Below the pieces are notes generated by a model. That model saw only the letters and a list, made by a program, of their open reading frames with translations, made no database searches and was not told where the DNA came from. Shown here piece after piece: positions 2,476 through 25,740 of a DNA stretch of 64,000 nucleotides (the stretch's first letter is position 1; each line of letters starts with the position of its first letter). The translations under genes and the position numbers were made by a program. The stretch is taken from positions 1,536,001 to 1,600,000 of the forward strand of contig CAVRVY010000003.1 of assembly GCA_963724765.1 (NCBI GenBank), read 5' to 3'. The DNA comes from an uncultured delta proteobacterium (GTDB lineage Bacteria; Desulfobacterota; Binatia; Binatales; Binataceae).

Positions 2476-3933
2476 TTATTCGTCTTGCGGTTTCAGTCCG
2501 AGGTTGTCGACGCTGATGCCAAGTTCGCGCATCTTTTGCTGAAAATTCTGCCGGTATATCCCGGCCCGCTCAGCGGCGCGCGAAATATTGCCGCCCGTGG
2601 ACCTGAGCGCATTGATGAAAAAATCGCGTTCCCACTGCCCGACGAATTTTTCCTTGGCCTCGCGGAACTTGACCTCGCCGCTCTCTCCTGGGGTTTCAGC
2701 CGTCACGGCCGCGGCAGGAATCCGCGCCGCGTCGTCATGGCTGGACGCGTCGGCGCCACCGCTTACGGAGCCGCCGAGCAGTTCCGCCGGCGTGATCTCG
2801 GTGCCCGAGGATAGAATCACTGCCTGTTCGATCGCGGCCTTGAGCGAGCGCACGTTGCCGCGCCACGGATTCTCCACGCACGCCCTCATCGTTTCGGGTG
2901 TCAGCGTCTTGTGCGGCGTGGCGAATTGCTTGCAGGCCTCGTCGAGAAAGTGCATCGCGAGCGATGCGATGTCCTCGCGCCGCTCGCGCAGCGGCGGGAC
3001 GCGTACCTCGACCACTTTGATCCGGTAGTAGAGGTCCTCGCGGAAACGCCCATCAGCGGCCATCAGTTCAAGGTTCTGGTTGGTCGCCGCGATTATGCGC
3101 ACGTCGGCCACGAGCGACTGGTTGCCGCCGATTCGTTCGAAACGCTTTTCCTGGATGACGCGCAGCAGCTTGGCCTGGGTCTCGAGGCTCATGTCGCCAA
3201 TCTCATCGAGGAACAGGGTTCCACCGTCGGCCGCCTCGAACTTGCCCTCGCGGCGCGCGACCGCACCGGTGAAGGCGCCCTTTTCATGGCCGAACAGTTC
3301 GCTCTCGACCAACTCGCGCGAAAACGCGGCGCAGTTGACCGGAACGAACGGACCATTGGCGCGCGGGCTGCGGCCGTGTATCGCGCGCGCGACCAGTTCC
3401 TTGCCGGTCCCCGACTCTCCGCGGATGAGCACGGTTACGTCGGTCGGCGCGACTTTTTCGATAGTCTCGAACACGCGCATCATCGCGCGTGACTGCCCGA
3501 TCATCCCGGCAAAGCGTCCGCTCTCGAGGTTCACCTGCTCGACCAGCCGGTTGTAGGCGCGGCGCAGCAGCTGTTTCTCCATCACGTTGCGGACTTTGAT
3601 TCTCAGTTCGTCATTGTCGAATGGCTTGGGCAGATAGTCTTCCGCGCCGGCCTTCATTGCTTCGACCGCGATGCGCTGCGTTCCGTACGCCGTGATCATC
3701 AGCACCGCGCATGCGGGATCGAGATGGCGCACGCTGCGCATCAGGTCGAGCCCGCTCATCCCCTGCATGCTCAAGTCCGTGATAATCACATGGAACAGGC
3801 CGGCCTTGACCTTGGCGAGCGCCTCTTCGCCCGACTCCGCGGTTTCGACCTCGTAGCCCTCCTTGCCGAACAGTCCCTTGAGCGCGACCAGGATGCCGTG
3901 CTCGTCATCGACGATTAAGAGCCTCCCCTTCAT
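2476..3933 (-). CDS. Sigma54-dependent response regulator (NtrC/AtoC family)
   Basis: REC domain (IVDDE, TDLSM), Walker [23 protein letters not shown]-terminal Fis-type HTH ([13 protein letters not shown]). Confidence 0.95.
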
Positions 3934-5513
3934 CGGCGTTGCGCGGCCTCGGCATGCTGCTGGGCCGGATTGGCCGGCGTTTGCTTCGCATCGGCGGGCG
4001 AGGCGTGATTGAATCCGGCCACGCCCGGTTGGCCAGGTTGGTCGGCCTGGTCGGCTTGATCGGTCTGGTCTGGCTGGTCGGGCCGGTCGGGTCGGTCGGG
4101 TCGGTCTTGGGCGCGCGCAGCGTCGGCCAGCGGAATCGACAGCCTGAACTCGGTGCCGGTCCCGGCCTTGCTCTGGACCTCGATTCGGCCGCTATGGGCG
4201 TCCATCACTTTCTTCGCGATACCCATCCCGAGTCCGGTGCCGTTTTTCTTGGTGGTATAGAACGGATTGAAAATCTTCGGCAGCTTGTCTTCGGCGATAC
4301 CGCATCCGTTGTCGCGGATCACCACGGTGGCCGTGCCCGGATGGAGGCTTACGATTCCGAATTCCAGGCGCCGCTCGCCCGCGTTCGATTCCATCGCATC
4401 GATCGCGTTGTCGATGACGTTGGTGAAGACCTGGCGCAGCTTGTCGGCGTCAGCGCGGACCGTCGGCCCCCCGATATAGTTGCGCGACACGCTGACCTGG
4501 TTGGCTTCGAGCTTGGCGCGCATCTCCGTGAGCGCGTGGTCGAGCACCGACGCCAGCCCCACGTTTTCGAAACGGTAGTCGGTTTCCTTGGCATACTTGA
4601 GCAGATGAGAGACGCTGCGTTCGACCCGCTCGAGTTCGTCGAGCGCCACTTTGGCGTACTCCACGTTCTCGTTTGAGATCGGATCCTCGCCCATCTGCTG
4701 CACCAGGCTTTTCGCCGCGGCGATGGGATTGCGGATTTCATGTGCGAAGCTGGCGGTAAGCTCATCCAGCGAGGCCTGCTTCTCGGTGCGCAGGGCCTCC
4801 TTCTCGCGCGTGACCTCGCGTTGTACCTCGCGTTGGACGGCGGGTTCGAACACGCGCTCGTGGATCCAGCGCCATCCGTATACGCCGCCGAAATGGCTGG
4901 CGAGCCCGATACCCCATCCGACCGCCGGGAAGATCCACCATTCGAACGAGGGGCTGACGACAAGATTCACAATCAGCATCGATCCGATGACGATCCCGTA
5001 CCACATCAGGTGAACATAAAAGCCGGCCTCGCGCGCGGCGCGCCGGCGGGCGCGCTTGTAGGCCTTGACGTCCTCGTCGCTATCGGGCTGCGATTGGCGG
5101 TCCTGCTTGAACTCACCGCGTCGGTCGGGTCCAGGCGTCCCGCGCGATTGCGAAGCCGCGGCGCCGCCGGGAGCCGCCGTGCCGCCGCGAAGCCTCTCGG
5201 CCTCGCGCCGTAGCTTTGCTTCCGCCATTTCGAGCTTGCTCGCGACCTTGTGCCCGACGTCGGCGGCCTGATGCCGCACGTCGTGGGCCCAGCGCTCCCA
5301 ATCCTGCCACTGGCGGGTCCACTTATCCCACTTGTCGTTTCCGGCTAGCCCGCTCTGGTGGGCGCGGCCGGCTTCGCTCTTGGCGTCTTCGCTGGACTGC
5401 ATTCGTTCCCATCGGCGCGACCACTTGTCGCACTTATCCCCGCTATAGATTCGCCGGTACTTACGCCGTTGGAAGAGGGCGAAAATTATGATCAGTGCAA
5501 TGAGGAAACCCAT
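3930..5513 (-). CDS. Sensor histidine kinase with a 2TM-like membrane domain
   Basis: H-box FAHEIRNP, N-box [10 protein letters not shown]-boxes DNGCGI and GTGLGM. The segment GFYVHLMWY...[16 protein letters not shown] resembles the 2TM domain. Stop overlaps the regulator start. Confidence 0.9.
4025..4106 (-). repeat. 9-bp degenerate tandem repeat encoding DRP/DQP/DQA tripeptides in the kinase C-tail
   Basis: Translates as [28 protein letters not shown]. Confidence 0.8.
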
Positions 5514-9889: not shown

Positions 9890-10106
9890 GCCGCGTACAT
9901 AAGTGTCTTTCGTTATTCTCTCCCCTGTGTTTTGGGGGAGCAGGTCAGAAAGTGCTCAACCAGTGATTCGCGAAGTTTCGTGTGCGTAAAGCAATCGGGG
10001 GGGGTCGAGAGGTCTAAGGCCTCGCCTTGCGGCGCTTAATTCTCTGTATTACAGCGTGACTACTGGTCTCCGTTTTTCGATCTCCACTTTTTTGGAGCGA
10101 CACGAC

Positions 10107-11357
10107 ATGCATGACAAAGACAACGGGCACAACACGCGCAGTACAAATGACGGCGGTCTGCTCTCCGGACTTCGGGTGATCGACTGCGGAACCTACGTTG
10201 CCGGCCCAGCGGCCGCCACGATCATGTCCGACTTCGGCGCCGAGGTGATCAAAATCGAGCGCCCCGGTGGCGGCGACCTGTGGCGGCTTTTTTCGAAGCT
10301 CCCCGGCACGGCCAAGTCCGAACTCGATTGGTGCTGGGTCCTCACCAGCCGCAACAAGAAAAGTGTCGCGCTGGATCTGGGACGGCCCGAAGGACGCGAA
10401 GCGCTGCTTCGCCTGGTGGGCACGGCGGATGTCTTCCTCACCAACTACCAGAGAACGCTGCTCGAGAAATTCCACCTGACTTGGGAGGACCTTGCGCCTG
10501 TCAACGACCGGCTAGTCTACGCGCACCTGACCGGCTACGGTGACGCGGGCGACGACGCAGATGACCCGGCGTTCGACGCGCTGGCGTACTGGGCACGCTC
10601 GGGTCTGATGACGAGCGTGACGGGGATCGACGGTTCGCCCAGCGGACCTCGGCCGGGGATGGGCGATCATCCAACCTCGATGTCGCTGTTCGGGGCGATC
10701 ATGCTGGGCCTTTACCGGCGCGAGCGCACCGGGCGCGGATCCAGGGTTAGTACATCTTTGCTGGCGAGCGGGGCGTGGGCCAACGCGTGCGACATTCAGG
10801 CCAAGCTCTTGAACGCGAAATTTCCCGAGCGCGGCGAGGGCAAGCATCCACCCAACCCGCTCACGGCTGTGTACCTCAGCCACGACGGCAAGATGTTTCT
10901 CCTCGTGCTAATCGATCCGGACAACGAGTTTCCGCGCCTGTGCCAAGCTTTCGGCCAGCCTGAACTCGGCACGGGCGAGTTGTTTGGAAGCAACGCCGAC
11001 CGCGATCAAAACGCGGCGGCGCTGTATGCAATCCTGCAGTCGCAGTTCGAATCGCGCGACCTGGCGGAGTGGAAAACGATCTTCAAATGCAACGACATCA
11101 AATGGGCGCCGCTGCCCAGGCTCGACGACGTCGTGCAGGATCCCCAGATGCGCGCGGCCGAGGCGTTCGTGAAGATGGATTATCCCGGGGCCGGTGTGCT
11201 GGAGACGGTGAACAGCCCGCTTTTCGTCTCCGGCGTGGAAAAACGGAAGCCCACGGCGGCGGCGGAGGTCGGCGCGCACACGCGCGAGGTACTGCAGGAA
11301 CTCGGGTATAGCGCGGAGGCAATCGAATCGATAGTGCGCGATGGCGCTCGGCGCTAG
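10107..11357 (+). CDS. CaiB/BaiF (class III) CoA-transferase
   Basis: LSGLRVID...AGP...DFGAEVIKIERPGGGD, RNKKSVALDL, catalytic Asp in GMGDH; GGAG RBS before ATG 10107. Confidence 0.92.
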   Translation: MHDKDNGHNTRSTNDGGLLSGLRVIDCGTYVAGPAAATIMSDFGAEVIKIERPGGGDLWRLFSKLPGTAKSELDWCWVLTSRNKKSVALDLGRPEGREALLRLVGTADVFLTNYQRTLLEKFHLTWEDLAPVNDRLVYAHLTGYGDAGDDADDPAFDALAYWARSGLMTSVTGIDGSPSGPRPGMGDHPTSMSLFGAIMLGLYRRERTGRGSRVSTSLLASGAWANACDIQAKLLNAKFPERGEGKHPPNPLTAVYLSHDGKMFLLVLIDPDNEFPRLCQAFGQPELGTGELFGSNADRDQNAAALYAILQSQFESRDLAEWKTIFKCNDIKWAPLPRLDDVVQDPQMRAAEAFVKMDYPGAGVLETVNSPLFVSGVEKRKPTAAAEVGAHTREVLQELGYSAEAIESIVRDGARR

Positions 11358-11507
11358 GGCAAAATCGTCGCGGTGACGCCATTACCGCCGCGGACGATAG
11401 TGGGATAAGCTGGAAGGTAGGTTTCTCGGCAACTGAGGAACGTAAAGGCTAAGCGAAAGCACAGCGATTCCTTCGCACAAGATCGCTAAAGGAGCGGAAA
11501 AGATAAG

Positions 11508-12860
11508 ATGCATTTCATGTGGTTTACGGAACGGGCGTACCATTATGATCCTGAGGTCGACCCGGCCAAGTATCATGCGCTGGAGAATCAGATCGTTGGA
11601 CTGCGCAGCTTCTTCAACACCCCCAACCGTTTTTTCGAGCGCGAGCACGGAGCGAAACTGCTCAACCAATACCTCGACGAGAAGATTTACACGGACTCCG
11701 AGCTGATGAGCTTCGACGGCGTGATGCTCAACGAGCATCATGGCACGCCGTTTTGCCTCGGTGCCGTGATGGATGTCGAAGCTTCCATCCTCGCCAAGAC
11801 CACCAAGCGGCTGAAGATGGTCCTGCTCGGCAATCCCGTCGCCACCGTCGCCAATCCGCTGCGCCTGGCGGAAGAACTGGCGATGATCGATCTCATCTCG
11901 GGCGGACGCCTGGTCTCCGGATGGGTGCGCGGCGCCGGTTCCGAGCAGTTCGCCAACAACACCAACCCGGCGCTCAACCGCGAACTGTTCGAGGAAGGCG
12001 TCGATTTCATCGTCAAGGCGTGGACCACGCCGGGCCCATTTCGCTACGAGGGCAAGCACTACAACTTCCGCAACGTGAACCCCTGGGTGCTGCCGCTGCA
12101 ACGGCCGCATCCGCCGTTCTGGATCCCGGGCCTGGTGAGTCCCGACACCGCCTTTTGGTGCGCCCGCAAGCGCTATCCGTACGTCGCCCTGGCCACGAGG
12201 CTGCAGCCGACGCTGGAGCTCTGGGACTTCTATGCGAAGGCGGCTGCGCAGGAGGGTTATCAGGCGGGGCCGGAGAATTTCGGCTACTTGCAGCCGGTGG
12301 TGGTGGCCGATACGCAGGAGCGAGCGGAGGAACTGGGCAAACGGATTCTTTTCGGCGGCGCCTTTGCGCACTTTGCTCGGCCGGAATGGATGTTCCCTCC
12401 GGGATACAATTCCAAGGCCGCAACCAAGCGTCTGGCCGAGTCGAATTTCGGCGCCAACGCCGCGGCCAAGTCGCTTTACGGCGAGGGCGGCAACAACGAG
12501 TCCGAAGAACAGATCGAAGCCGTCAAGAAACACATCTATGACGGCTATCCGGACGTCCTGAAGGACTACGTAATGATCGCCGGCACGCCTGACAACGTGA
12601 TTCCCAAGCTCAATAAAGTGCTCGACGTCCTGCGCCCGGGCATCTTTTCGTTCTGGCTCGACGGACCGGTCCCGGCCAAGGACCGGATGCGATGCCTGGA
12701 ATTGCTCAACCGCGACGTGATTCCGGCCATGCGCGACTACGGCAAGACGATCGGATTGGTCGATCCATTCCAGCGCGCTCCGGGTTCGCGCCCGTTGCGT
12801 CCGGGGGTTGCACCAGAGCCGGTGAGCAATGCCGACGCGCTCGCGTCGATGACGGCCTGA
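11508..12860 (+). CDS. Luciferase-like (LLM class) flavin-dependent oxidoreductase
   Basis: LNEHH, NPLRLAEELAMIDLISGGRL, PLQRPHPP; AAGGAG upstream. Confidence 0.9.
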   Translation: MHFMWFTERAYHYDPEVDPAKYHALENQIVGLRSFFNTPNRFFEREHGAKLLNQYLDEKIYTDSELMSFDGVMLNEHHGTPFCLGAVMDVEASILAKTTKRLKMVLLGNPVATVANPLRLAEELAMIDLISGGRLVSGWVRGAGSEQFANNTNPALNRELFEEGVDFIVKAWTTPGPFRYEGKHYNFRNVNPWVLPLQRPHPPFWIPGLVSPDTAFWCARKRYPYVALATRLQPTLELWDFYAKAAAQEGYQAGPENFGYLQPVVVADTQERAEELGKRILFGGAFAHFARPEWMFPPGYNSKAATKRLAESNFGANAAAKSLYGEGGNNESEEQIEAVKKHIYDGYPDVLKDYVMIAGTPDNVIPKLNKVLDVLRPGIFSFWLDGPVPAKDRMRCLELLNRDVIPAMRDYGKTIGLVDPFQRAPGSRPLRPGVAPEPVSNADALASMTA

Positions 12861-13061: not shown

Positions 13062-13862
13062 ATGAGCTCTTCGGAAGAGGTGGCGGCCGGGCGTGCTCCT
13101 ACTGACTGGCTCGTCGGCTGGAAAACTCTATTTGTCGCATGCGGCCTGCTAATGGCCTGCAACGTTTTCCTTTGGGTCTGGGATTACAACTACGCGTTTA
13201 CGGCGGGACTTGATTCCTCGAGCCGCGCCTTCACGCTTCACTACCGCACGCTGTTCTGGGGTGAGCTGCTGAGCGTGGGGGCATTTGCCGGCCTGTGGTA
13301 CGGATGGCTGATGCGGACCGGCCGCAGTCTCGTGGGCGAGGCGGTGGCGCCCGCCGAAGAGGTGCGGCGCGTTGTGGTGCTGTGGGGAATTATCGGAGTT
13401 ACCAGCCTCTCGATCTACATCGAGGCGAGCTTCTGGCCCAACTGGGACGGCGCGTGGCATCAGACGATGGTGCGCGATACCGCGCTCACCCCGACCCACA
13501 TTCCGATGTTCTACTTCTTCTTCCCGATGTCGGTGGTGCTGGCCCTGGGAGCGTACCTGTACGGGCGCTTTCGGATTCCCGCGGTCTACGGCGGCGAGAA
13601 GGGATTCCCGTGGTCTTTCTTTTTGTTGATCGCGGCCGCGGTTCTCGAATTCGTGGAGGTCGCCTTCAACGAATGGGGTCACAGTCTCTGGATGTCAGAG
13701 GAATTCTTCTCGGTGCCCTTCCATTGGCCTTTTGTCATTTATGGATGGCTGGCGGGTGGGATGTTCGCGGTGTGGGGCGAAACCATCCTCTATCTCTTCC
13801 AGATAGAAAAGAGGGCGCGAGCGGTGGAAGAACTCCCGACCCATACGGCTGCCGCCGGCTAA
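13062..13862 (+). CDS. xmoC: Copper membrane monooxygenase subunit C (PmoC/AmoC family)
   Basis: DGAWHQTMVRDTALTPTH (CuC Asp/His/His) and NEWGH-x13-H (CuD Asn/His/His); multiple TM helices. Confidence 0.95.
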   Translation: MSSSEEVAAGRAPTDWLVGWKTLFVACGLLMACNVFLWVWDYNYAFTAGLDSSSRAFTLHYRTLFWGELLSVGAFAGLWYGWLMRTGRSLVGEAVAPAEEVRRVVVLWGIIGVTSLSIYIEASFWPNWDGAWHQTMVRDTALTPTHIPMFYFFFPMSVVLALGAYLYGRFRIPAVYGGEKGFPWSFFLLIAAAVLEFVEVAFNEWGHSLWMSEEFFSVPFHWPFVIYGWLAGGMFAVWGETILYLFQIEKRARAVEELPTHTAAAG

Positions 13863-13911
13863 GCGGCGCAAACTGCTCTTCTCAAATCCTGGCGTCTCGC
13901 GCGAGGGAAGC

Positions 13912-14709
13912 ATGGCGACAGCACCATCGTTAGCCGCAGCCGCGGCGGCCGAGAAGCAACGCAGGCTCGCGCTGCGCGACCTGCTCAACGCGAAATATCA
14001 ATGGATCGATCGCACCTGGGACGCGGTCTTCTGGATCACGGCCATCTTCGTCGTTGCCGGGGCGGCGGACATCACGCGGCTGCTGTTCGCCGGCGATTGG
14101 GATTTCTGGACTGATTGGAAAGATCCGCAATGGTGGCCGGTGGTGACCGCCTTCGCCACCATCATCATTCCTTCCGCACTCCAATACATTCAGTGGGCCG
14201 CCTGGCGGTTCCCCACCGGCGCGACGTACACGTGCGTGTGCCTTTTCATGGCCTCGTGGATCGGGCGCTACTTCCAATGGCACGTGGCCGAAAGCTATCC
14301 AATGAACTTCATATGGCCGATATCGACGATTCCGGCGGCCATAATTCTTGACTGGCTATTGATGAGAACGAAAAGTTTCGTACTGACATCGCTTTTCGGC
14401 GGAGGGATTTGGGCCGTGATGGTGTGGAGCTTCAACTATATCCCGCTCGCGCCATTCCTTCAGCCGATGCAATTCATGCATCACATTCTCACGGTTGCCG
14501 ACGTCCAGGGCATCGTTTACATCCGCACCCAGACGCCCGAATACATGCGGCATATTGAACGCGGCGCGCTGCGCAGCTTTCTCGGCGAGACCCAGTACGT
14601 GTCGCTGCTGTTTGGCGGCACGATGGCGATGGTCGGTTATTGGATCGGCCAGTTCATCGGGCGATACCTCGCCGTGTGGCCGATTGGCAGATACATCAAG
14701 ACCGTCTGA
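13912..14709 (+). CDS. xmoA: Copper membrane monooxygenase subunit A (PmoA/AmoA family)
   Basis: AGDWDFWTDWKDPQWWPVVT, RFPTGAT, YPMNFIWP, YIRTQTPEYMRHIERGALRSF. Confidence 0.96.
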   Translation: MATAPSLAAAAAAEKQRRLALRDLLNAKYQWIDRTWDAVFWITAIFVVAGAADITRLLFAGDWDFWTDWKDPQWWPVVTAFATIIIPSALQYIQWAAWRFPTGATYTCVCLFMASWIGRYFQWHVAESYPMNFIWPISTIPAAIILDWLLMRTKSFVLTSLFGGGIWAVMVWSFNYIPLAPFLQPMQFMHHILTVADVQGIVYIRTQTPEYMRHIERGALRSFLGETQYVSLLFGGTMAMVGYWIGQFIGRYLAVWPIGRYIKTV

Positions 14710-14728
14710 GCGAGGCGCGGGCACAGCG

Positions 14729-14965
14729 ATGCGAACCGTCTTTCGTTGCTTACGCGCCGTCGTGGTCGCGCTCCTGTGGACCAGCGTATTTGCCGCCAGC
14801 GCCTATGCGCATGGTGGAATCGCCGGGCCCGACGAGCTTGGCCCGCCGGTAATCACCTCGGCCGTGCTCGGCATCGGTGGCTACTGGTTGATGTTGCTGT
14901 GGCCGTCGCGCCGCCGTCCGGTGGTCAGCAAAAAAAACAAGCCGATGCGTAACGTGATGAAGTAG
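14729..14965 (+). CDS. 78-aa membrane-anchored mini-protein between xmoA and xmoB, predicted mature N-terminus HGG
   Basis: Signal peptide ending SAYA|HGGIAGPDELGPP, then one TM helix and a basic tail. It fills the A-B gap (19 nt after xmoA, 42 nt before xmoB). Confidence 0.75.
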   Translation: MRTVFRCLRAVVVALLWTSVFAASAYAHGGIAGPDELGPPVITSAVLGIGGYWLMLLWPSRRRPVVSKKNKPMRNVMK

Positions 14966-15007
14966 CGGACTTGCAGGCGGATTTTCCACGCCATACGGGG
15001 AGGCGGA

Positions 15008-16258
15008 ATGCGAATGCGATTTCCGGCTGTTCTGTCAGCGGCTCTCTTCCTGCTCACAGCATCCTATGCGCCACGCGCTTTCGCGCACGGCGAAGCGGCG
15101 GACGAGCCGTTCCTCAAGGATCTCACCGTCGCCTTCTATGACGTGCACATCTCGCCTACCACGATCAAAGTAGGTGAGCCGGTCACGATCACTGGAGCGG
15201 TGAAAATTCTCGAGACCTGGCCATATACGCTCGATCCGCCGCAAACCGCGTACATCACGCCGGTCGTTCCGGGCCCGGTCTTCGCGCTCATCAACCGGGA
15301 GATTAATGGGACCGCGGCGCCGGGCTCGATCCTGGTCGACAAGGGCGGCACTTATCATTTCAAAATGGTGATCGAGGGGCGCGACCCCGGAAACTGGCAC
15401 GTGCATCCGGGAATCGCTATACAGGGCACCGGGACTCTCATCGGCCCGGGCGAGTGGGTCACGGTTGAGCGGGGGGCCGCGCCCTTCAAAATGGACGTGA
15501 CGCTGCTCACTGGCCAAACCGTCAATCTGGAGCATTACGGCGGCAGTTTCGTATGGTGGTGGTCATTCGCCGGGTTCCTGATCGGCATGATCTGGATGAT
15601 CTATTGGACCGTTCCCAAACGTACCGTTACCCGTCTCGCGGTGACCACACAAATACCGGTCAACGACGACGCTCCCGACATCGGACTCATCACCCCGCGC
15701 GACCACATGTGGATGGACGTGCTCGCCGGTGCGACGATCGCGATGCTGGTCGTCGGCTGGATCTACATGGCAGTGAAGTTTCCCGTGCGGTTGCCGCAGC
15801 AGACGGTGCGCTTTGCGCCCGAGGTCATCGATTCCACCACTCATTCGGTCCAGGTGATGAAAGCCGATTCCACCTACGACGATCGGACCGATACGCTGTT
15901 GATAAACCTCGCGGTCAGGAATACCGGGACCGTTGCGTTAAGCCTGAAGCAATACATCATGGCGATGGCCACGTTCGTCAATGGCGACAAGAAAGAACAG
16001 GAAAAGGCCGGACCGGCGCACTACGTCGGGCGCATGCAGGTCGAGCCCGACGCTCCGATCGAGCCCGGACAGACCGCGAAGGTGCAATTGAAGATAAGTA
16101 GTCCGCTGTTCGATGAAGAGCGGCTCATCCCGCTGCACGACCCGCAGGAGCGTATCGCGGGGCTGCTGCGCTTTACCGGTCCGCAGGGTCACGAGGACCT
16201 GGTTACCCTGCATACCGATCTCGTGCCAACGGAGTTCCGCCCGCAGTATTTGCCTTAG
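15008..16258 (+). CDS. xmoB: Copper membrane monooxygenase subunit B (PmoB/AmoB family)
   Basis: Signal AFA|HGE, WHVHP (CuB His triad), GTLIGPGEWV, two central TMs, C-terminal cupredoxin-like domain (PIEPGQT...ERL...AGLLRF); GGAGG RBS. Confidence 0.96.
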   Translation: MRMRFPAVLSAALFLLTASYAPRAFAHGEAADEPFLKDLTVAFYDVHISPTTIKVGEPVTITGAVKILETWPYTLDPPQTAYITPVVPGPVFALINREINGTAAPGSILVDKGGTYHFKMVIEGRDPGNWHVHPGIAIQGTGTLIGPGEWVTVERGAAPFKMDVTLLTGQTVNLEHYGGSFVWWWSFAGFLIGMIWMIYWTVPKRTVTRLAVTTQIPVNDDAPDIGLITPRDHMWMDVLAGATIAMLVVGWIYMAVKFPVRLPQQTVRFAPEVIDSTTHSVQVMKADSTYDDRTDTLLINLAVRNTGTVALSLKQYIMAMATFVNGDKKEQEKAGPAHYVGRMQVEPDAPIEPGQTAKVQLKISSPLFDEERLIPLHDPQERIAGLLRFTGPQGHEDLVTLHTDLVPTEFRPQYLP

Positions 16259-16276: not shown

Positions 16277-16822
16277 GTGAAGATCAAGCGACGCGAGTTC
16301 CTGCACAAGAGCGCGCTGGTGGTCGCCGGCGTATCGGCAGCGGCCGCTGGTGTTACGGTCACCGGCTTTGCCGCCGAATGGACTTCGAAATTAAAGACCC
16401 TGAATGCACACGAGGCTGAAACGCTGCTCAAGATGGCGCGGCAGATCTTCCCGCACGACCGCCTCGGCGATAGCTACTATATAAAAGTAGTTGATGACCT
16501 CGATGCGGAGGCGGCAAGCAAGCCCGCCACCGCCAGAATGATAAGCGCAGGAGTAGCTAATCTGGATCATTTGGCGAAAGGCGAATTTGCCGCCCAACCC
16601 GCCAGCGATCAAATCGCCGCGCTCAAGAAAATTCAGCATACGCCGTTTTTCGAGAAGGTCCGCAGCACCGAGCTGGTTTCGCTGTACAATAACGAGGACG
16701 TTTGGAAGGTCTTCGGCTACCAGGGCGCCTCCTACCGTTTCGGCGGTTACCTGCATCACGGCTTCAACGACCTGAATTGGCTGCCGGAACCACCCGAAGC
16801 GGCAAGCCCGAAACCGGGCTGA
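16277..16822 (+). CDS. Tat-exported small (gamma/hitchhiker) subunit of a GMC dehydrogenase, gluconate 2-dehydrogenase subunit 3-like
   Basis: Twin-arginine KRREFL signal, IFPHD, LYNNEDVWKVFGYQG...GGYLHHGFNDLNWLP; GAGGAG RBS 18 nt after xmoB. Confidence 0.85.
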   Translation: MKIKRREFLHKSALVVAGVSAAAAGVTVTGFAAEWTSKLKTLNAHEAETLLKMARQIFPHDRLGDSYYIKVVDDLDAEAASKPATARMISAGVANLDHLAKGEFAAQPASDQIAALKKIQHTPFFEKVRSTELVSLYNNEDVWKVFGYQGASYRFGGYLHHGFNDLNWLPEPPEAASPKPG

Positions 16823-16837
16823 ACGGAGAGTTGCATC

Positions 16838-18406
16838 GTGGCTCGATTCGATTCGAATGACGATTCCGTCGTGGTAATCATCGGTTCGGGAGCGGGCGGA
16901 GGCACGCTGGCGAACGAGCTCTGTCACAAGGGCTTCAAGGTGGTGATGCTCGAGGCGGGGCAGCGTCAGTCGCCGCAGACCTTTCACAACGACGAGTGGT
17001 TCGCATTCAAGCAACTAGCCTGGCTCGATAAGCGCACCACCTCGGGGACCTGGCGGGTAGCGAAGGACTTCCCCAACCTGCCGGCCTGGACCTGCAAGAC
17101 GGTTGGTGGAACGACCGTGCACTGGGCGGGCGCGTCGTTGCGCTTTCAGGAGCACGAATTCAAGACCAAGACCACCTATTCAAGTGTCAGCGGTGCGAAC
17201 CTTCTCGACTGGCCGATAAGCCTCGCGGAATTGGCGCCTTACTACGCCAAGGCCGAGGATAAGATGGGCGTGACGCGGACTAATGATATTCCGGGACTCC
17301 CGGGGAATAACAATTTCAAGGTAATGTATAATGGTGCCACGCGTGTAGGGTATAAGACTGTGCACACCGGGCGCATGGCGATTAATAGCCGGCCCCGCGA
17401 CCGCCGTTCGTCCTGCTGGCAACTCGGATTTTGTTTCCAGGGCTGCAAGTCGGGAGCGAAGTGGTCAACTCTCTACACCGAAATTCCGAAGGCCGAGTCC
17501 ACTGGTAAGCTCGATTTGCGGCCCGGGTCCTACGCGCTCCAGATTCAGCATGACGCCAATGGCAAAGCGACCGGCGTGCTGTACGCCGATAAGGACGGCA
17601 AACATGTCGTGCAGAAGGCGCGCATCGTGTGCGTGGCCTGCAATTCGATCGAAAGCGCGCGGCTCCTGCTCAACTCGGCCTCGTCCACGTTCCCGCACGG
17701 GCTCGCCAATTCATCCGGCCAGGTCGGCAGAAACTACATGCGGCATACGACCGGCTCCGTCTACGCCATTTTCGACAAGCCGGTCCATATGTATCGTGGT
17801 ACCGTGATGGCCGGAATCATCACCGACGAAGCCGAGTTGAATACCAAGCGCGGGTTTGCCGGCGGTTTCGAGATGGAGACCATCTCGCTCGGACTGCCGT
17901 TCGCGGCCGCGTTCCTGGATCCGGGAGCCTGGGGACGCGACTATTCGAGCATGCTTGAGCAGTATCCCAACATGGCTGGGTTGTGGATCGTGGGCGAGGA
18001 CATGCCGCAGGCGACCAACGCCGTGACGCTCCATCCGACGGTAAAGGACCAGTGGGGTCTCCCGATTCCGAACGTGCACTACGACGATCATCCCAACGAC
18101 GTCGCCATGCGCAACTACGGATACAAGCAGGGCGCTGCGGTGTACAATGCCGTTGGGGCGATCAAGACCATCGCGGTCCCGCCGTATCCTTCGACGCATA
18201 ACCTGGGCACGTGCCGTATGAGCGAGCGCCCCGGCGACGGCGTCTGCAATAAGTGGGGCCAGACTCACGACGTGAAAAATCTGTTCATTTCCGACGGCAG
18301 CCAGTTCACGTCCAGTGGGGGCGAGAATCCCACGCTCACGATCGTCAGCCTGGCCATCAGGCAAGCCGATCGCATCGCCGCCGAGAGTGCGAAGCGGAAC
18401 CTCTAG
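16838..18406 (+). CDS. GMC family FAD oxidoreductase, catalytic subunit with a C-x5-C-x3-C motif
   Basis: IIGSGAGG, VGGTTVHWAG, CWQLGFCFQGC, GQVGRNYMRH, HNLGTCRM, ENPTLTI; no signal peptide of its own. Confidence 0.93.
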   Translation: MARFDSNDDSVVVIIGSGAGGGTLANELCHKGFKVVMLEAGQRQSPQTFHNDEWFAFKQLAWLDKRTTSGTWRVAKDFPNLPAWTCKTVGGTTVHWAGASLRFQEHEFKTKTTYSSVSGANLLDWPISLAELAPYYAKAEDKMGVTRTNDIPGLPGNNNFKVMYNGATRVGYKTVHTGRMAINSRPRDRRSSCWQLGFCFQGCKSGAKWSTLYTEIPKAESTGKLDLRPGSYALQIQHDANGKATGVLYADKDGKHVVQKARIVCVACNSIESARLLLNSASSTFPHGLANSSGQVGRNYMRHTTGSVYAIFDKPVHMYRGTVMAGIITDEAELNTKRGFAGGFEMETISLGLPFAAAFLDPGAWGRDYSSMLEQYPNMAGLWIVGEDMPQATNAVTLHPTVKDQWGLPIPNVHYDDHPNDVAMRNYGYKQGAAVYNAVGAIKTIAVPPYPSTHNLGTCRMSERPGDGVCNKWGQTHDVKNLFISDGSQFTSSGGENPTLTIVSLAIRQADRIAAESAKRNL

Positions 18407-18418
18407 CGGAAGCTCCAG

Positions 18419-19036
18419 ATGACGCGGCGCGTTTTCGGATTTCGCAGCGGCGCGTCGGCAGTTTGGATCGCCTCAGCGGCGATACTCATGCTGGCGCTTC
18501 CGTTCGCGGCGCGGGCTGAACTCGGCAAAGCCGCGGCGCGGGCGGTGGCGAGTCCTGCCGACGGCCTGCCAAAAGTAAGTCTTACAGACCAGAATGGCAG
18601 AGCGATCTCGCTTTCGTCATTGAAGGGCAAGCCGGCACTGGTCGCTTTTATCCACACCTCGTGCGAAGGGCCCTGCGAGCTGATCACTGCCGAGATGAAG
18701 TCGGTCGCGCGGAGCCTGGGGCCCAGCTTCAGGTCCGAAGTCACGATGGTCTCGATCACTACGGACCCCAAGGAGGACGGATCGCGCGAGCTGCTTGCCT
18801 ATGCCAAGGCGCAAGGAGTGGACGCCGACGGATGGGTGTTCCTGACCGGCGCGCCCGCAAAGATTCGCCGGCTCCTGGCCCTTTACGGCGTCTCGGCTGA
18901 AGACGACGACTCGGCCCACGTCCTGGAGCTGTTTCTGCTCAGCGCCGACGGCGTTGGATTACGCCGTTACAATGGTCTCGCGACACGTCCGGAAACGATC
19001 GCCTCGGATATCAGGAAAACCGTCTCGCTTCATTAG
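18419..19036 (+). CDS. SCO1/SenC family copper chaperone
   Basis: LTDQNG, FIHTSCEGPC (CxxxC), SITTDPKED, WVFLTG, conserved His (SAHV); N-terminal signal/anchor. Confidence 0.9.
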   Translation: MTRRVFGFRSGASAVWIASAAILMLALPFAARAELGKAAARAVASPADGLPKVSLTDQNGRAISLSSLKGKPALVAFIHTSCEGPCELITAEMKSVARSLGPSFRSEVTMVSITTDPKEDGSRELLAYAKAQGVDADGWVFLTGAPAKIRRLLALYGVSAEDDDSAHVLELFLLSADGVGLRRYNGLATRPETIASDIRKTVSLH

Positions 19037-22209: not shown

Positions 22210-22427
22210 GGATGTCTCCCTTGTGGCCTGCACCGCCATGAGCCATCGGATCGGAATCGGAAGAGCGATTACAAGGACAGGATATCAAACCGGTCGAGCC
22301 TTTGTAGAGCAATCTATGCGGTCGAGCGGCCGGATTCGCGTCGCAGTGGAAAGATATTCAATTGACGAAATCAGAGAATTGGCGCATCGTTGAGTGTCTA
22401 AGCTGCAACAAGATCCGGAGCGTCAAA

Positions 22428-23966
22428 ATGGCTGAGGCAAGCAAACTTTCGCGCCGCCTGAGCACCCAGGACGCTTCATTTCTATACAACGAGACGCCCA
22501 ACGGCCCACTGCACATCGGTCTCCTCCAAACCTTCGAAGGCGAGATCGAGTTCGATCGGCTGATAGAGTATTTCGAGCGCCGCATTCATCTTTTGCCGGG
22601 TTACCGGCAGCGCCTGATTTTCGCGCCGTTTAACCTCGCTCACGCGACCCTGGAGGATGATCCGGCGTTCGAGCTGCGCAATCACCTAAAGCGCCACACG
22701 CTCCACAGCGGCGCCGACGACGCTGAAATGGCCGAAATAGCGATGTGCGTCAACGAGCCTCCGTTGGAGCGGAGCCGCCCGCTATGGGAATTGCATCTGT
22801 TCCAGGGCCTCGAGGGCGGCCGTTCAGCGCTGCTGTGGAAAATCCATCACTGCATTGTCGACGGGGTCTCAGCGTTGCAATTGATTGCGACCGCGATGGA
22901 TCTGAGACCTGACGCTCCGGCGCCGGCGCCTGAGCGTGAGCCGTGGGCGCCCGCGAGCCTGCCCGACAGCTCCAAGTCCCTGCTGGACGCGGCGGTAGCG
23001 CTGGTCGAGAACCGGCTCGATGAACTGCATGAGGCCGCAAGACTGCTGAGCTCGCCGGCCGATCTGGCCGAGCGGAGCGCTGCGATGGCCGGCGCGGCCG
23101 CGCAGATGTTCCAGATGATGTCGCGGCCGATCGTTGCGGCGCCATGGAACATGGGGCTCGTCAGCCGGGCCTGCTCGCTAGCGTGGCTTAGGGTCTCTTT
23201 CGGCGACCTTCGCGCAATCCGCAGCGCGCTTGGTGGCACGGTCAATGACGTGGTGCTGACTATCCTGAGCGAGGGCGCCGCGCGCTACCTGAAACACCAC
23301 GAGGTCGCCACAGATGGGCTTGCGCTGCGCGTCGGATGTCCGGTCAACGTGCGGCGCGAGGGCGAGAACGGAGCGATGGGCAACCGGGTATCAATGATGT
23401 TTCCCGAATTGGCGGCGACGCCGATGGACCCAATCGAGCGCTACCGCTCAGTAGTGCGGGAGACCGAGCGAATCAAGGCTGCGCGCGAGCCGCAGGGGAT
23501 GGACTTGCTAACGGCGACCGCTGACTCGGTCTCGCCCGGCTTGCAAGACTTCAACTCGAAGATGACAAATAGCGCGATCGAGGCCGCGACACGGCTCTCC
23601 GAGTTCACAGGCGGTCTGGCCCGAATGATCGCGGGGCCGCCGATGGGGATCAACTTCATCGCTACGAACGTGCCGGGGGCTCAGGTTCCGATGTACCTGG
23701 CGGGGCATCGGATGCTCGATTTCGTCGGCCTCGTTCCACTGGCGGGCACGCTCGGCTATGGCGTGGCGATAGTTAGCTACAATCAGAACCTGTTCTTTGG
23801 ACTGATGGCGGAGCCGCAGATGATGCCCGACGTGGAATTCATGAAGTCGTGCATCGCAGACGCCTTTGAGGAACTCAAGGCCGCAGTGCAAAGAGTAATG
23901 TCCGCGCAAGAGCAATTGATAAAGGCGGCCGGACAAGTACTGAAACGCGATTCAGCGCTGGCGTGA
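22428..23966 (+). CDS. Wax ester synthase/diacylglycerol acyltransferase (WS/DGAT)
   Basis: LSTQDASFLYNE, RPLWE, catalytic HHCIVDG (HHxxxDG), TVNDVVL, TNVPG. Confidence 0.93.
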   Translation: MAEASKLSRRLSTQDASFLYNETPNGPLHIGLLQTFEGEIEFDRLIEYFERRIHLLPGYRQRLIFAPFNLAHATLEDDPAFELRNHLKRHTLHSGADDAEMAEIAMCVNEPPLERSRPLWELHLFQGLEGGRSALLWKIHHCIVDGVSALQLIATAMDLRPDAPAPAPEREPWAPASLPDSSKSLLDAAVALVENRLDELHEAARLLSSPADLAERSAAMAGAAAQMFQMMSRPIVAAPWNMGLVSRACSLAWLRVSFGDLRAIRSALGGTVNDVVLTILSEGAARYLKHHEVATDGLALRVGCPVNVRREGENGAMGNRVSMMFPELAATPMDPIERYRSVVRETERIKAAREPQGMDLLTATADSVSPGLQDFNSKMTNSAIEAATRLSEFTGGLARMIAGPPMGINFIATNVPGAQVPMYLAGHRMLDFVGLVPLAGTLGYGVAIVSYNQNLFFGLMAEPQMMPDVEFMKSCIADAFEELKAAVQRVMSAQEQLIKAAGQVLKRDSALA

Positions 23967-24126
23967 TCGCGTCACTGATTGGGCATAGACGCGAGGAGCA
24001 CAAACCGCTCGGTTGCATAGGGGCCAGGCCTTCAAACCGATTTCCTGAAGAGCACCGAAAGCTCCGGCTCAACAAGTTTCCGGCGTCGCCGGCCCCGCAG
24101 GGCCGCAAGGTGTCAGGAGAAAGAGC

Positions 24127-24624
24127 ATGGGACAGCCAGAAAACGATGGCGATATAGCTGCACTCTATCAAGCCCTGGGGGCCGAGGTGCAGGAGGTCCT
24201 GCGCAAGGCGTCAGCGGCGGGAGCCGATCGCGAAGAAGTGCGCGCCGCGGCCTGGAAGGCCTACGAAGCCTGGGTGCGCGCTGCGCATGCTTCAATCGAG
24301 AAGGTGGTGGCGACGCCGGCGGTTGGCGACGCGGCCGCGGGAGTGCTCAATCTCTTCTTGCGCGCGGCGCAAGTCGGCAACTCCGTGGTGGGCTCGCTGT
24401 TCGCGCCGCTGTGGCCGCTGGTCGGACTGACCCCGCTGACCGAGACGCAGGCGTTGTTCGATAGAATCGAGAGCCTGCGGCGCGAGGTGCGACAATTCAC
24501 CGCGCCGGGCATGCCGAAACCGATCGCGCCCGTCGCTGCGCCTCGCGCGGCGGCGCCCCGGAGCCGGCGTGGACAAAATGGAAATGTTTCCCGTGACAAG
24601 AAGCCGGCTGCCATTAGCCAGTAG
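24127..24624 (+). CDS. Short PhaE-like/granule-associated helical protein
   Basis: AGGAG RBS. C-terminal GLTPLTETQALFDRIESLRREVRQ resembles the PhaE C-terminal heptad; lies directly upstream of phaC. Confidence 0.55.
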   Translation: MGQPENDGDIAALYQALGAEVQEVLRKASAAGADREEVRAAAWKAYEAWVRAAHASIEKVVATPAVGDAAAGVLNLFLRAAQVGNSVVGSLFAPLWPLVGLTPLTETQALFDRIESLRREVRQFTAPGMPKPIAPVAAPRAAAPRSRRGQNGNVSRDKKPAAISQ

Positions 24625-24651
24625 AACGCGACCAGCCGGCGCTGTCGCGCC

Positions 24652-25740
24652 GTGCAAAAGGCAAGCGCTATGTCACTGATGACCGAACTTCCGATGTACT
24701 GGTTGGATGGCGCGGTGCGAGCGCTCGACGGCAGGCGCCGGGGATTGAGCGACCATTATCCGCTGAGCGAAGATCCTCCGGGAATAACTCCGTACGAGGT
24801 TGTTTACGAAGGCGGGAAAGTCAGGCTGCGGCACTACGCGGCGCAAGGGAATTCGCATCGCACGCCGCTGGTCTTCGTCTATGCGCTGATCAAGAGACCC
24901 TTCATACTCGATCTGTTTCCGGGACGCAGCGTGATGGCGAACCTGACCCGACAAGGCTTCGACGTCTACATGGTTGAATGGATTCCGCCGGCGCGGGCTG
25001 ACAGTTGGCGCGGATTCGACGCCTACGTGAACCATGACCTTGGCGATACGATGCGCGCGGTTCAAAACCTGACCGGCGTGGCGAAAGTTAATTTGCTGGG
25101 CTACTGCTTCGGCGGCCTGCTGACGCTGTTGTACGCGGCGTTGCATCCCGACGACATCAAGAACCTGATCACGCTCACGACGCCGTTCGACACCGCGGTC
25201 GAAGGCAATCCGCTGTTCAATCTCGAGAGCAGATTCAGCGGCCAGACAGTTGACCTGGTCACGTCGGTGTACGGGAATTGCCCGGCGTGGTTTATAAGAG
25301 GACTATTCACTGCGACCGCCGTCGTACATCACGCGATCGACAAGTACGTCGCGCTCTATCGGAACAAGGAGAAGGAGGACTACGCGGAGTTCTTCGACTT
25401 GTTCGAGCAATGGATGGCTGGCGACGTGCCGCTGGCCGGACGGATATTCCGCGAGGTGACGCGGGAAATCTTTCAGAAGAACCTGCTTAAGAAGGGTGAG
25501 TTCAACGTGGGCGGCGAGCACGTGGACCTGGGAAAGATCGTCTGCCCGCTGCTCAACGCGGTCGGCGAGTACGATGACGTGGTGTTTCCGGCCTCCAGTC
25601 TGCCGTTGATAGATTTCGTCGGCAGCGAGGACAAACGCAATCTGACGTTTCCCGCGGGACACATCGGGATGGTGGTGAGCGGCGCGGCGCACAAACAGTT
25701 CTGGCCACAAGTAGGCGCCTGGCTCGCCGAACGTGACTGA
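24652..25740 (+). CDS. phaC: Class III-type PHA synthase PhaC (start may be 24670)
   Basis: TPYEVVY, VYALIKRPFILDL, lipase box GYCFGG, GEYDDVV, AGHIG; ~360 aa. Confidence 0.85.
   Translation: MQKASAMSLMTELPMYWLDGAVRALDGRRRGLSDHYPLSEDPPGITPYEVVYEGGKVRLRHYAAQGNSHRTPLVFVYALIKRPFILDLFPGRSVMANLTRQGFDVYMVEWIPPARADSWRGFDAYVNHDLGDTMRAVQNLTGVAKVNLLGYCFGGLLTLLYAALHPDDIKNLITLTTPFDTAVEGNPLFNLESRFSGQTVDLVTSVYGNCPAWFIRGLFTATAVVHHAIDKYVALYRNKEKEDYAEFFDLFEQWMAGDVPLAGRIFREVTREIFQKNLLKKGEFNVGGEHVDLGKIVCPLLNAVGEYDDVVFPASSLPLIDFVGSEDKRNLTFPAGHIGMVVSGAAHKQFWPQVGAWLAERD

What the first reader, a model, noticed from the sequence alone, without database searches (positions are those of the whole stretch)
13062..16258. 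Metal-ligand pattern: CuB, CuC and CuD kept; bis-His and proposed tricopper D-site lost
By-eye alignment to remembered Methylococcus pMMO numbering. Kept: PmoC D156/H160/H173 (DGAWH...TPTH), N227/H231/H245 (NEWGH-x13-H) and PmoB H33/H137/H139. Changed: PmoA H38>D, H40>T, M42>L (DITRLLFAGDWDFW) and E100>S (ASWIGRY); PmoC EQD>NWD and IIEFY>IPMFY; PmoB H48/H72 absent. Inference: a natural variant supporting the PmoC sites as catalytic, with a remodelled pocket that points to a substrate other than methane or ammonia.
Basis: partly seen in the sequence, partly recalled or inferred. Interest (0 to 1): 0.75.

Follow-up and report, generated by a model that had tools for sequence, protein, structure and literature searches.

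The report
Binatia copper monooxygenase ligand pattern
This is an intact copper membrane monooxygenase operon from an uncultured soil Binatia bacterium whose unusual residues are real but are the conserved hallmark of a whole, already reported enzyme lineage of unknown substrate, not a one-off variant.

Summary
HMMER alignments to solved pMMO chains confirm PmoB H33/H137/H139, PmoC D156/H160/H173 and N227/H231/H245 kept. They also confirm PmoA H38>D, H40>T, M42>L, E100>S, PmoC EQD>NWD and IIEFY>IPMFY, and PmoB H48>A, H72>K.

The pattern is not special to this window. The same states occur in the window plus 80 Binatia loci and in 120 PmoC cluster representatives, and the A-subunit motif recurs in relatives labelled Acidobacteria, Actinomycetota, Dormibacteraeota and Caldinitratiruptor.

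[quoted passage not shown] The proposed tricopper residues vary widely across it and are partly lost in the characterised Mycolicibacterium NBB4 hydrocarbon monooxygenase, which still keeps H38, M42 and E154.

The three aligned pocket phenylalanines are kept, so a "remodelled pocket" is not shown.

The lineage is in print (Murphy 2021; a 2026 preprint), and this scan noted it before on other DNA.

Phylogeny, sub-threshold scores against pMMO/AMO models, no PQQ methanol dehydrogenase found in the genome and a co-operonic flavoprotein dehydrogenase favour a substrate other than methane or ammonia. That substrate is unknown.

A conserved mini-gene between A and B is the least explored part.

The parts
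13062..13862 (+). CuMMO subunit C (266 aa). CuC ligands are D129/H133/H146 (nt 13446-13499). CuD ligands are N203/H207/H221 (nt 13668-13724). Clade-specific residues are N127-W128 and P148-M149.
   Evidence: Pfam PF04896 at E 3e-44; PDB PmoC chains at E 1e-40; Bath numbering through. N127, D129, H133, H146 and M149 are found in 121 of 121 rows of the homologue alignment.
13912..14709 (+). CuMMO subunit A (265 aa). The motif D53-I-T55-R-L57-LFAGD62WD64FW lies at nt 14068-14109. S115 lies at nt 14254-14256.
   Evidence: Pfam PF02461 at E 4e-59; alignment to 1yew_B. D53 and T55 occur in 80 of 81 rows. The motif runs through the whole clade.
14729..14965 (+). Mini-gene x (78 aa). It has a signal-peptide-like N-terminus, an invariant A27-H28-G29, E36, P40, one transmembrane helix ending in W58-P59, and a basic tail.
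   Evidence: No Pfam or NCBIfam match. A homologue lies between A and B in 79 of 80 Binatia loci. A27 and H28 are invariant in 25 of 25 rows, including the two actinobacterial proteins. 445 database relatives were found; every source name among the 120 listed reads 'hypothetical'.
15008..16258 (+). CuMMO subunit B (416 aa). CuB ligands are H27 (nt 15086-15088) and H131/H133 (nt 15398-15406). The bis-His positions are A42 and K66.
   Evidence: Pfam PF04744 at E 8e-83; alignment to 3rgb_A; conservation counts.
16277..16822 (+). Small subunit with a twin-arginine-type signal, partner of the flavoprotein that follows.
   Evidence: Weak TAT-signal match (PF10399, E 0.007, below the cut-off). Found next to the GMC gene in 38 of 80 Binatia loci on the operon strand.
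16838..18406 (+). GMC-family FAD dehydrogenase, large subunit.
   Evidence: PF05199 and PF00732. The nearest solved chains are fructose dehydrogenase large subunit 7w2j_A (E 9e-48) and FAD glucose dehydrogenase 6a2u_B. Found beside the CuMMO genes in 41 of 80 loci.
18419..19036 (+). SCO1/SenC-type copper chaperone or thiol-disulfide protein.
   Evidence: PF02630 at E 5e-19. A relative was found in 34 of 80 loci.

Best explanation
The region is a functional copper membrane monooxygenase operon (C-A-x-B) of a Binataceae bacterium (class Binatia). It belongs to a deep, uncharacterised CuMMO clade shared with bacteria of several phyla.

Shown: the fold family; intact CuB, CuC and CuD ligand sets; retention of three Phe at the aligned pocket positions; and strong conservation of the clade-specific residues.

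Inferred:
- Oxygen activation and substrate oxidation occur at the CuC/CuD centre in subunit C, as in pMMO and AMO.
- The polar patch between the first helix of A and subunit C is rebuilt. His38/His40/Glu100 of PmoA and Glu154/Glu176 of PmoC become Asp, Thr, Ser/Ala/Thr, Asn-Trp and Met. This is a lineage-specific second-shell feature, not a lost metal site.
- The substrate is a small molecule other than methane or ammonia, most likely a short-chain hydrocarbon. Its alcohol product would be oxidised in the periplasm by the co-operonic TAT-exported GMC flavoprotein, with copper delivered through the SCO1-like protein.
For: - Family and ligands.
- Conservation: ligands and clade residues are fixed in 77 of 79 C rows, 80 of 81 A rows and 73-74 of 75 B rows and in 121 of 121 C rows. 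F150, F216 and F224 are invariant.
- Clade: in a tree of 41 A rows the family splits 12 (pMMO/AMO/Pxm) against 29 rows, support 98/97. The window sits in an 18-row clade, support 100/100, with Acidobacteria, Carbonactinospora, Lentzea, Egibacteraceae, Dormibacteraeota and Caldinitratiruptor rows. The NBB4/WAY2 HMO clade lies in the same half.
- All three subunits score below the NCBIfam equivalog cut-offs for methane/ammonia monooxygenase. C scores 172 against 319 and 143 against 281; A 209 against 290 and 191 against 318; B 285 against 336 and 210 against 395.
- Only one CuMMO was found in the genome. No PQQ methanol/ethanol dehydrogenase was found at 97% completeness.
- The operon partners recur despite rearrangement: GMC in 41, the TAT subunit in 38 and SCO1 in 34 of 80 loci.
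- Literature (passages read): Binatota CuMMOs are grouped with butane and hydrocarbon monooxygenases. 'Putative pmoA Binatales' sits among hydrocarbon monooxygenases, and methanotrophy modules are missing or incomplete in the TUSC-bearing Binatia MAGs. Helix 1 of AmoA and helices 3-6 of AmoC form the hydrophobic channel that holds CuC/CuD.
Against: - No member of the 18-row clade has a measured substrate. The nearest characterised enzyme (NBB4 HMO) is only 35/45/32% identical in C/A/B and lies in a different clade.
- All copper ligands and the three pocket Phe are the same as in pMMO, so methane cannot be excluded from sequence.
- Murphy 2021 left methane open for this type.
- The nearest solved relatives of the GMC enzyme act on sugars, not simple alcohols. 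No cytochrome subunit lies beside it.
- The absence of methanol dehydrogenase covers one family only. NDMA-dependent and other types were not searched.
- No RNA data were found, so expression is not shown.
Confidence: 0.6

Rival explanations
1. It is a true methane monooxygenase of an atmospheric or low-methane oxidiser, and the changed residues are neutral for methane oxidation.
For: CuB, CuC, CuD and the three pocket Phe are all kept. Murphy 2021 considered methane possible for Binatota CuMMOs. Subunit B scores slightly higher against M. capsulatus PmoB (218 bits) than against NBB4 HmoB (199 bits).
Against: The clade separates from pMMO/AMO/Pxm at 98/97 support. Scores fall below the NCBIfam equivalog cut-offs. 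No PQQ methanol dehydrogenase was found in the genome. The 2026 preprint found methanol, formaldehyde and formate modules missing or incomplete in Binatia MAGs and places the clade with hydrocarbon monooxygenases.
Confidence: 0.1
2. It oxidises some other small molecule, not an alkane: for example acetone or another ketone, an alkene, or a sulfur or nitrogen compound. The flavoprotein dehydrogenase then acts on a product that is not a simple alcohol.
For: A verrucomicrobial pMMO homologue is reported, by the title and abstract listed, to oxidise acetone. The conserved polar substitutions D53, T55 and N127 make the patch beside CuC more polar. The GMC partner resembles sugar dehydrogenases. A luciferase-like monooxygenase and a CoA-transferase lie upstream, but in only 16 and 9 of 80 loci.
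Against: There is no direct evidence for any substrate. The three hydrophobic Phe are retained, as in enzymes that act on hydrocarbons.
Confidence: 0.22
3. It is an ammonia monooxygenase of an unrecognised nitrifier.
For: The best NCBIfam names are the bacterial AmoC, AmoA and AmoB models, though all scores are below the cut-offs.
Against: The clade is distinct from the AMO representatives. No HAO-like multihaem family was found in the genome, but that search rang in no control genome, so it is weak. No nitrifier features are reported for Binatia in the passages read.
Confidence: 0.03
4. The changed residues mark a decaying, non-functional copy.
For: None beyond divergence from pMMO.
Against: It is the single copy in the genome. 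The frames are intact. The ligand and clade residues are invariant over 73-98% identical loci and over 120 cluster representatives. Operon order is conserved.
Confidence: 0.02

Closest known systems
Binatota/Binatia CuMMOs known from MAGs: Murphy et al. 2021 mBio (PMC8262859, passages read) and 'Putative pmoA Binatales' in bioRxiv 10.64898/2026.02.02.703227 (passages read)
   Same: Same lineage. The A subunit is 96-98% identical to MAGs titled Candidatus Binataceae or uncultured delta proteobacterium. The CAxB gene order with a hypothetical x is reported there, and so is conservation of PmoB H33/H137/H139.
   Different: In the passages I read, only the PmoB histidines are discussed. The CuC/CuD ligands, the A-subunit and C-subunit substitutions, the x motif and the linked GMC/SCO1 genes are not. 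I did not read the supplements (their Fig. S1).
Hydrocarbon monooxygenase HmoCAB of Mycolicibacterium chubuense NBB4 (plasmid NC_018022.1, locus L082), with the Rhodococcus sp. WAY2 homologue
   Same: Both sit in the non-pMMO/AMO half of the family tree. CuB, CuC and CuD ligands are kept. H48/H72 are absent. H40, E100 and E176 are replaced. An x-like gene with 'LAHGG..DE', a transmembrane helix and a basic tail is present.
   Different: Identity is only 35/45/32% in C/A/B, and the clades are separate. NBB4 keeps H38, M42 and E154 but has D49>S. Its x-like gene lies after B and has no signal peptide. Its neighbour is an NDMA-dependent methanol dehydrogenase, not a GMC flavoprotein.
Particulate methane monooxygenase of Methylococcus capsulatus Bath (PDB 1yew, 3rgb, 7ev9, 7s4h)
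   Same: Same three-subunit family with the same CuB, CuC and CuD ligands. Phe is kept at the three aligned pocket positions.
   Different: The bis-His ligands are absent (A42, K66). PmoA H38/H40/M42/E100 become D/T/L/S, and PmoC E154/Q155/I175/E176 become N/W/P/M. Scores fall below the NCBIfam equivalog cut-offs.
Supernumerary single-helix subunits of pMMO and AMO: the 23-residue protein in Methylocystis sp. Rockwell pMMO, the 46-residue ORF in N. europaea AMO (PMC11725843) and AmoD/AmoE of N. halophila AMO (PMC12804982)
   Same: Gene x also encodes a short single-pass membrane protein linked to a CuMMO.
   Different: No sequence relation was tested or seen. Gene x lies inside the operon and has a signal peptide, an invariant His and predicted N-out topology. 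AmoD and the N. europaea helix are N-in. Physical association of x with the enzyme is not shown.

Membership tests
Copper membrane monooxygenase (CuMMO) superfamily | Three subunits matching Pfam AmoC, AMO and Monooxygenase_B, encoded together | tested here: met
   E 3e-44, 4e-59 and 8e-83, all far above the gathering scores. The genes are contiguous in the order C, A, x, B.
Copper membrane monooxygenase (CuMMO) superfamily | CuB ligands (PmoB H33, H137, H139) | tested here: met
   H27, H131 and H133 in the alignment to 3rgb_A. Present in 73-74 of 75 rows.
Copper membrane monooxygenase (CuMMO) superfamily | CuC (D156, H160, H173) and CuD (N227, H231, H245) ligands in subunit C | tested here: met
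   D129, H133 and H146; N203, H207 and H221. Present in 119-121 of 121 rows.
pMMO/AMO proper (NCBIfam equivalogs TIGR03078/03080/03079 and NF041641/041557/041640) | Score at or above the curated equivalog cut-off | tested here: not met
   C scores 143 against 281 and 172 against 319. A scores 191 against 318 and 209 against 290. B scores 210 against 395 and 285 against 336.
pMMO of M. capsulatus type | Bis-His (CuA) ligands PmoB H48 and H72 | tested here: not met
   A42 and K66. A42 occurs in 74 of 75 rows; position 66 is K, R, T or Q.
pMMO with the proposed tricopper (Chan D/E) site | PmoA H38, M42, D47, D49, E100 and PmoC E154 | tested here: not met
   D53, L57, D62, D64, S115 and N127: only the two Asp are kept.
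Mycobacterial-type hydrocarbon monooxygenase (HMO, NBB4 clade) | Membership of the NBB4/WAY2 clade in an A-subunit tree | tested here: not met
   NBB4, WAY2 and P0129 form their own clade (100/98). The window lies in a different 18-row clade (100/100) in the same half of the tree.
Mycobacterial-type hydrocarbon monooxygenase (HMO, NBB4 clade) | Oxidation of C2-C4 alkanes or alkenes but not methane | not testable with these tools
   This needs an enzyme assay. No member of the window's clade has been assayed as far as the passages read show.
Binatia 'Putative pmoA Binatales' / CAxB-type CuMMO | Near-identical A subunit in Binataceae genomes and CAxB gene order | tested here: met
   96-98% identity to 8 MAG loci and 73-98% to all 80 loci. 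Gene x lies between A and B in 79 of 80 loci.

The most novel reading that the evidence does not exclude
The mini-protein x is a true fourth subunit. After signal-peptide cleavage, its invariant histidine would be the N-terminal residue, as in PmoB. That histidine and the conserved Glu eight residues later bind or hand over copper at the periplasmic face. The clade-wide rebuilt polar patch (A-subunit D53/T55, C-subunit N127/W128, next to CuC ligand D129) is its docking site or a new second-sphere network that sets the substrate preference of this uncharacterised clade.
Probability: 0.2. Interest if true: 0.65.

Novelty: new member of a known kind. Interest (0 to 1): 0.3.

Why it matters
As filed, the finding adds little to the active-site debate. 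Loss of the bis-His and 'tricopper' residues in active relatives, and the case for subunit C, are already in the literature.

Its use is descriptive. It gives a clean residue-level signature for a large, multi-phylum soil and peat CuMMO clade that pmoA surveys can mistake for methanotrophs:
- (D/N)-I-T-x-(L/Q)-LFAGDWDFW in subunit A
- P-N-W-D-G-x-W-H and H-I-P-M-F in subunit C

It also points to three conserved helper genes worth testing when someone expresses this enzyme: x, the TAT/GMC dehydrogenase pair and the SCO1-like protein. Knowing the substrate would matter for reading soil hydrocarbon and methane budgets.

Tried and rejected
- Complex prediction of C + A + B (residues 27-416) + x (residues 28-78), with x as partner. 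Verdict 'no answer': scores 0.49, 0.54 and 0.48; partner-replaced controls 0.00 and 0.00; the control with B replaced 0.39. I use it neither for nor against binding.
- Search for sequencing runs. No RNA holder is listed, so nothing can be said on expression. The DNA holders are peat, soil and freshwater-sediment metagenomes. I laid no reads.
- HAO-like family PF13447 in the own genome. No match, but the family rang in no control genome, so this is uninformative.
- One literature search on hmoD/bmoD/pBMO returned almost only unrelated papers.
- Liew 2014 and Koo 2022 are not held. I know them only through citing passages.
- The numbers of the three pocket phenylalanines (PmoC F177, F240, F248) are my recollection. 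The papers read say only 'three conserved phenylalanine residues' and 'lined by phenylalanine residues'.
The fold tools return no coordinates, so I ran no structure prediction.
- Rejected: that the pattern is unique to this genome.
- Rejected: that it equals the pattern of the characterised HMO. It differs at H38, M42, D49 and E154.
Full report
**What is at the coordinates**

Nucleotides 13062-16258 hold four + strand genes with short gaps:
- C, 13062-13862, 266 aa
- A, 13912-14709, 265 aa
- a 78-codon gene x, 14729-14965
- B, 15008-16258, 416 aa

C, A and B match Pfam AmoC, AMO and Monooxygenase_B at E 3e-44, 4e-59 and 8e-83. Gene x matches nothing. Three more genes follow directly: a small protein with a twin-arginine-type signal (16277-16822), a GMC flavoprotein (16838-18406) and an SCO1/SenC protein (18419-19036). 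The genome has 5.4 Mb in 4 contigs, is 97% complete, and holds only this one CuMMO.

**Check of the observation**

- PmoA. phmmer alignment to M. capsulatus Bath PmoA (1yew_B) gives H38>D53, H40>T55, M42>L57, D47=D62, D49=D64 and E100>S115.
- PmoB. Alignment to 3rgb_A gives H33=H27, H137/H139=H131/H133, H48>A42 and H72>K66.
- PmoC. The window was aligned to the alpha-proteobacterial chains 3chx, 3rfr and 4phz. I carried Bath numbering over through Methylomagnum PxmC, aligned to 7ev9_C at offset +29, and through my MAFFT alignment. This gives E154-Q155-D156 = N127-W128-D129, H160=H133, H173=H146, I175-E176 = P148-M149, N227=N203, H231=H207 and H245=H221.

**Who carries it**

A scan of species-representative genomes returned 80 loci whose A subunit is 73-98% identical. 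Their titles read Candidatus Binataceae, Candidatus Binatia, Binatota or 'uncultured delta proteobacterium', with a few evident mislabels.

In the large protein database the next named relatives of A are:
- an Acidobacteria MAG, 75%
- Caldinitratiruptor, 69%
- Carbonactinospora, 68%
- Dormibacteraeota, 65-68%
- Lentzea, 65%

I built a tree of 41 A rows. The rows were the window, 9 of the 80 Binatia loci, 8 named database proteins, 20 of the 36 full-length 50%-cluster representatives, NBB4, Rhodococcus WAY2 and Methylomagnum PxmA. The family splits into a pMMO/AMO/Pxm part (12 rows) and a second part (29 rows), with support 98/97. The window lies in an 18-row clade (100/100) with all the relatives named above. 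The characterised Mycolicibacterium NBB4 HMO forms a separate clade in the same half. Identity to NBB4 is 35/45/32% for C/A/B.

**Is the pattern special?**

No. It is a lineage hallmark. In the window plus Binatia loci:
- Subunit C has N127, W128, D129, H133, H146, P148, M149, N203, H207 and H221 in 77 of 79 rows. The other 2 rows are cut ORFs.
- Subunit A has D53, T55, D62 and D64 in 80 of 81 rows. Position 57 is L in 30 rows and Q in 50. Position 115 is S in 22, T in 12 and A in 47.
- Subunit B has H27 and A42 in 74 of 75 rows and H131/H133 in 73 of 75.

Among 120 database cluster representatives of C plus the window (58-94% identity), N stands at E154 in 121 of 121 rows, W at Q155 in 117, P at I175 in 119 and M at E176 in 121. 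The A motif (D/N)-I-T-x-(L/Q)-LFAGDWD(F/M)W is present in all 25 rows of alignment A1, which includes the Actinomycetota, Dormibacteraeota and Caldinitratiruptor proteins; one row has V in place of I.

**Is it the norm elsewhere?**

Partly. A full HMMER search of 1.84 billion representatives found only 178 A-family clusters. In the 36 listed representatives of at least 200 aa:
- H38 is His in 18, Asp in 3, another residue in 10 and a gap in 5.
- E100 is Glu in 10.
- D47 is nearly always kept.

The characterised NBB4 HMO has H38=H, H40>N, M42=M, D47=D, D49>S and E100>Q. It has PmoC E154=E and E176>L, and PmoB H48>A and H72>R. Methylomagnum Pxm has H, H, A, D, D, T and E176>V.

So loss of the bis-His pair, and loss of part of the proposed tricopper ligands, is ordinary outside methanotroph pMMO. 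The particular set D/T at H38/H40, N-W at E154/Q155 and P-M at I175/E176 is specific to this clade.

**Bearing on the active-site debate**

The passages I read say the following.
- The bis-His site is not conserved and may be adventitious.
- Mutagenesis of the mycobacterial HMO pointed to subunit C (Liew 2014, cited; the paper itself was not available).
- CuD binds the product analogue trifluoroethanol.
- Quantum refinement finds no support for copper at the proposed trinuclear site formed by PmoA H38, M42, E100, N103 and R104.

The window therefore agrees with the mainstream view but adds no new argument.

**The pocket**

The active-site pocket is described as lined by three conserved phenylalanines. 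I recall these as PmoC F177, F240 and F248; the numbers come from no call. The Bath sequence has Phe at those positions. The window has F150, F216 and F224 there, invariant in alignment A3 and in 120-121 of 121 rows.

Helix 1 of AmoA and helices 3-6 of AmoC form the hydrophobic channel that holds CuC/CuD. The A-subunit changes at D53/T55/L57 and the C-subunit changes beside ligands D129 and H146 therefore lie in the second shell of the active site. That is as far as sequence goes. A 'remodelled pocket' is a reasonable idea, but it is not shown, and I could compute no geometry.

**Substrate**

Evidence against methane or ammonia as the main substrate:
- the clade placement
- scores of all three subunits below both sets of NCBIfam equivalog cut-offs
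- no PQQ methanol/ethanol dehydrogenase found in the genome
- the 2026 preprint, which places 'Putative pmoA Binatales' among hydrocarbon monooxygenases and finds the downstream methane-processing modules missing or incomplete in the TUSC-bearing Binatia MAGs
- a 2025 paper listing Desulfobacterota_B among HMO holders

Murphy 2021 left the question open. The search for HAO-like proteins was uninformative.

The TAT-subunit and GMC pair recurs beside the CuMMO genes, GMC in 41 and the TAT subunit in 38 of 80 loci. It sits upstream in some loci and downstream in others, almost always on the operon strand, and many loci are too short to show it. Its nearest solved relatives are the flavoprotein subunits of membrane-bound fructose and glucose dehydrogenases.

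I infer that it oxidises the monooxygenase product in the periplasm. GMC enzymes serving as the alcohol step of alkane pathways are known (AlkJ; recalled, from no call). The substrate itself remains unknown.

**Gene x**

A homologue of x lies between A and B in 79 of 80 Binatia loci; the remaining locus ends before that point. It often overlaps the start of B, and in L041 it is in frame with B as one 540-aa ORF.

Its features are a hydrophobic signal-like N-terminus, an invariant Ala-His followed by Gly, a conserved Glu and Pro-Pro, one transmembrane helix ending in Trp-Pro, and a basic tail. NBB4 and Rhodococcus WAY2 carry a related gene after B, with 'LAHGG..DE', a helix and Arg-Arg but no signal peptide. 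The pairwise BLASTP E-value is 4e-4, and Ala-His is invariant in 25 of 25 rows.

The family has 445 database members at E up to 0.001. Of the 120 listed, none has a Pfam domain, and every name that a source gives is 'hypothetical protein'. Murphy 2021 noted 'CAxB' with x hypothetical. Supernumerary single-helix subunits are now known for pMMO and AMO, so a fourth subunit is plausible. Binding is not shown: the complex job gave no verdict.

**Earlier notes of this scan**

Four earlier notes on other genomes describe the same lineage, the same residue replacement and the same mini-gene. They agree with what I found independently. The scan has therefore met this before on other DNA.

**Verdict**

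- Observation: confirmed.
- Interpretation: partly supported.
- The feature is a new member of a known, uncharacterised CuMMO lineage.
- In the searches I ran I found no paper that tabulates the CuC/CuD ligands or the A/C substitutions for Binatia. I did not read supplements, and several key papers are not held.

Noticed in passing
window 14729-14965: A 78-codon gene between A and B encodes a signal peptide, an invariant Ala-His-Gly, one transmembrane helix and a basic tail. It is conserved in 79 of 80 Binatia loci. A related gene lies after hmoB in Mycolicibacterium NBB4 and Rhodococcus WAY2. It has no Pfam or NCBIfam family.
   Followed up: yes
L041:6769-8388: In one Binatia MAG, gene x and subunit B read as a single 540-aa open frame. 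This is either a natural fusion or an assembly or frame artefact; I did not check which.
   Followed up: no
window 16277-19036: A TAT-signal small subunit, a GMC flavoprotein of the fructose/glucose-dehydrogenase type and an SCO1/SenC protein follow B with gaps of 13-19 nt. They recur beside the CuMMO genes in 34-41 of 80 loci, upstream in some and downstream in others. No cytochrome c subunit is adjacent.
   Followed up: partly
window 2476-5513 (- strand): A sigma-54-dependent response regulator (AtoC/NtrC-like) and an AtoS-like sensor histidine kinase lie about 7.5 kb upstream of the operon. They might regulate it; this was not tested.
   Followed up: no
window 10056-12860: A family III CoA-transferase and a luciferase-like monooxygenase lie directly upstream on the same strand. 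They are conserved only in the closest relatives: 9 and 16 of 80 loci, the weaker LLM hits being distant paralogues.
   Followed up: partly
window 22362-25740: A wax-ester/triacylglycerol synthase and a class III PHA synthase PhaC lie downstream. These are storage-lipid genes that would suit a hydrocarbon or alcohol diet, but no link was tested.
   Followed up: no
L083 (Methylomagnum ishizawai plasmid pRS11DPr1, 3944-6755): An ABC-ordered (pxm-type) CuMMO operon is carried on a 274-kb plasmid of a gammaproteobacterial methanotroph. Its C subunit has Val at the E176 position.
   Followed up: no
one search hits P0132 (514 aa), P0150 (985 aa) and P0231 (1212 aa): Some A-family representatives are much longer than a normal A subunit. 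This suggests fused forms of CuMMO subunits in other lineages.
   Followed up: no
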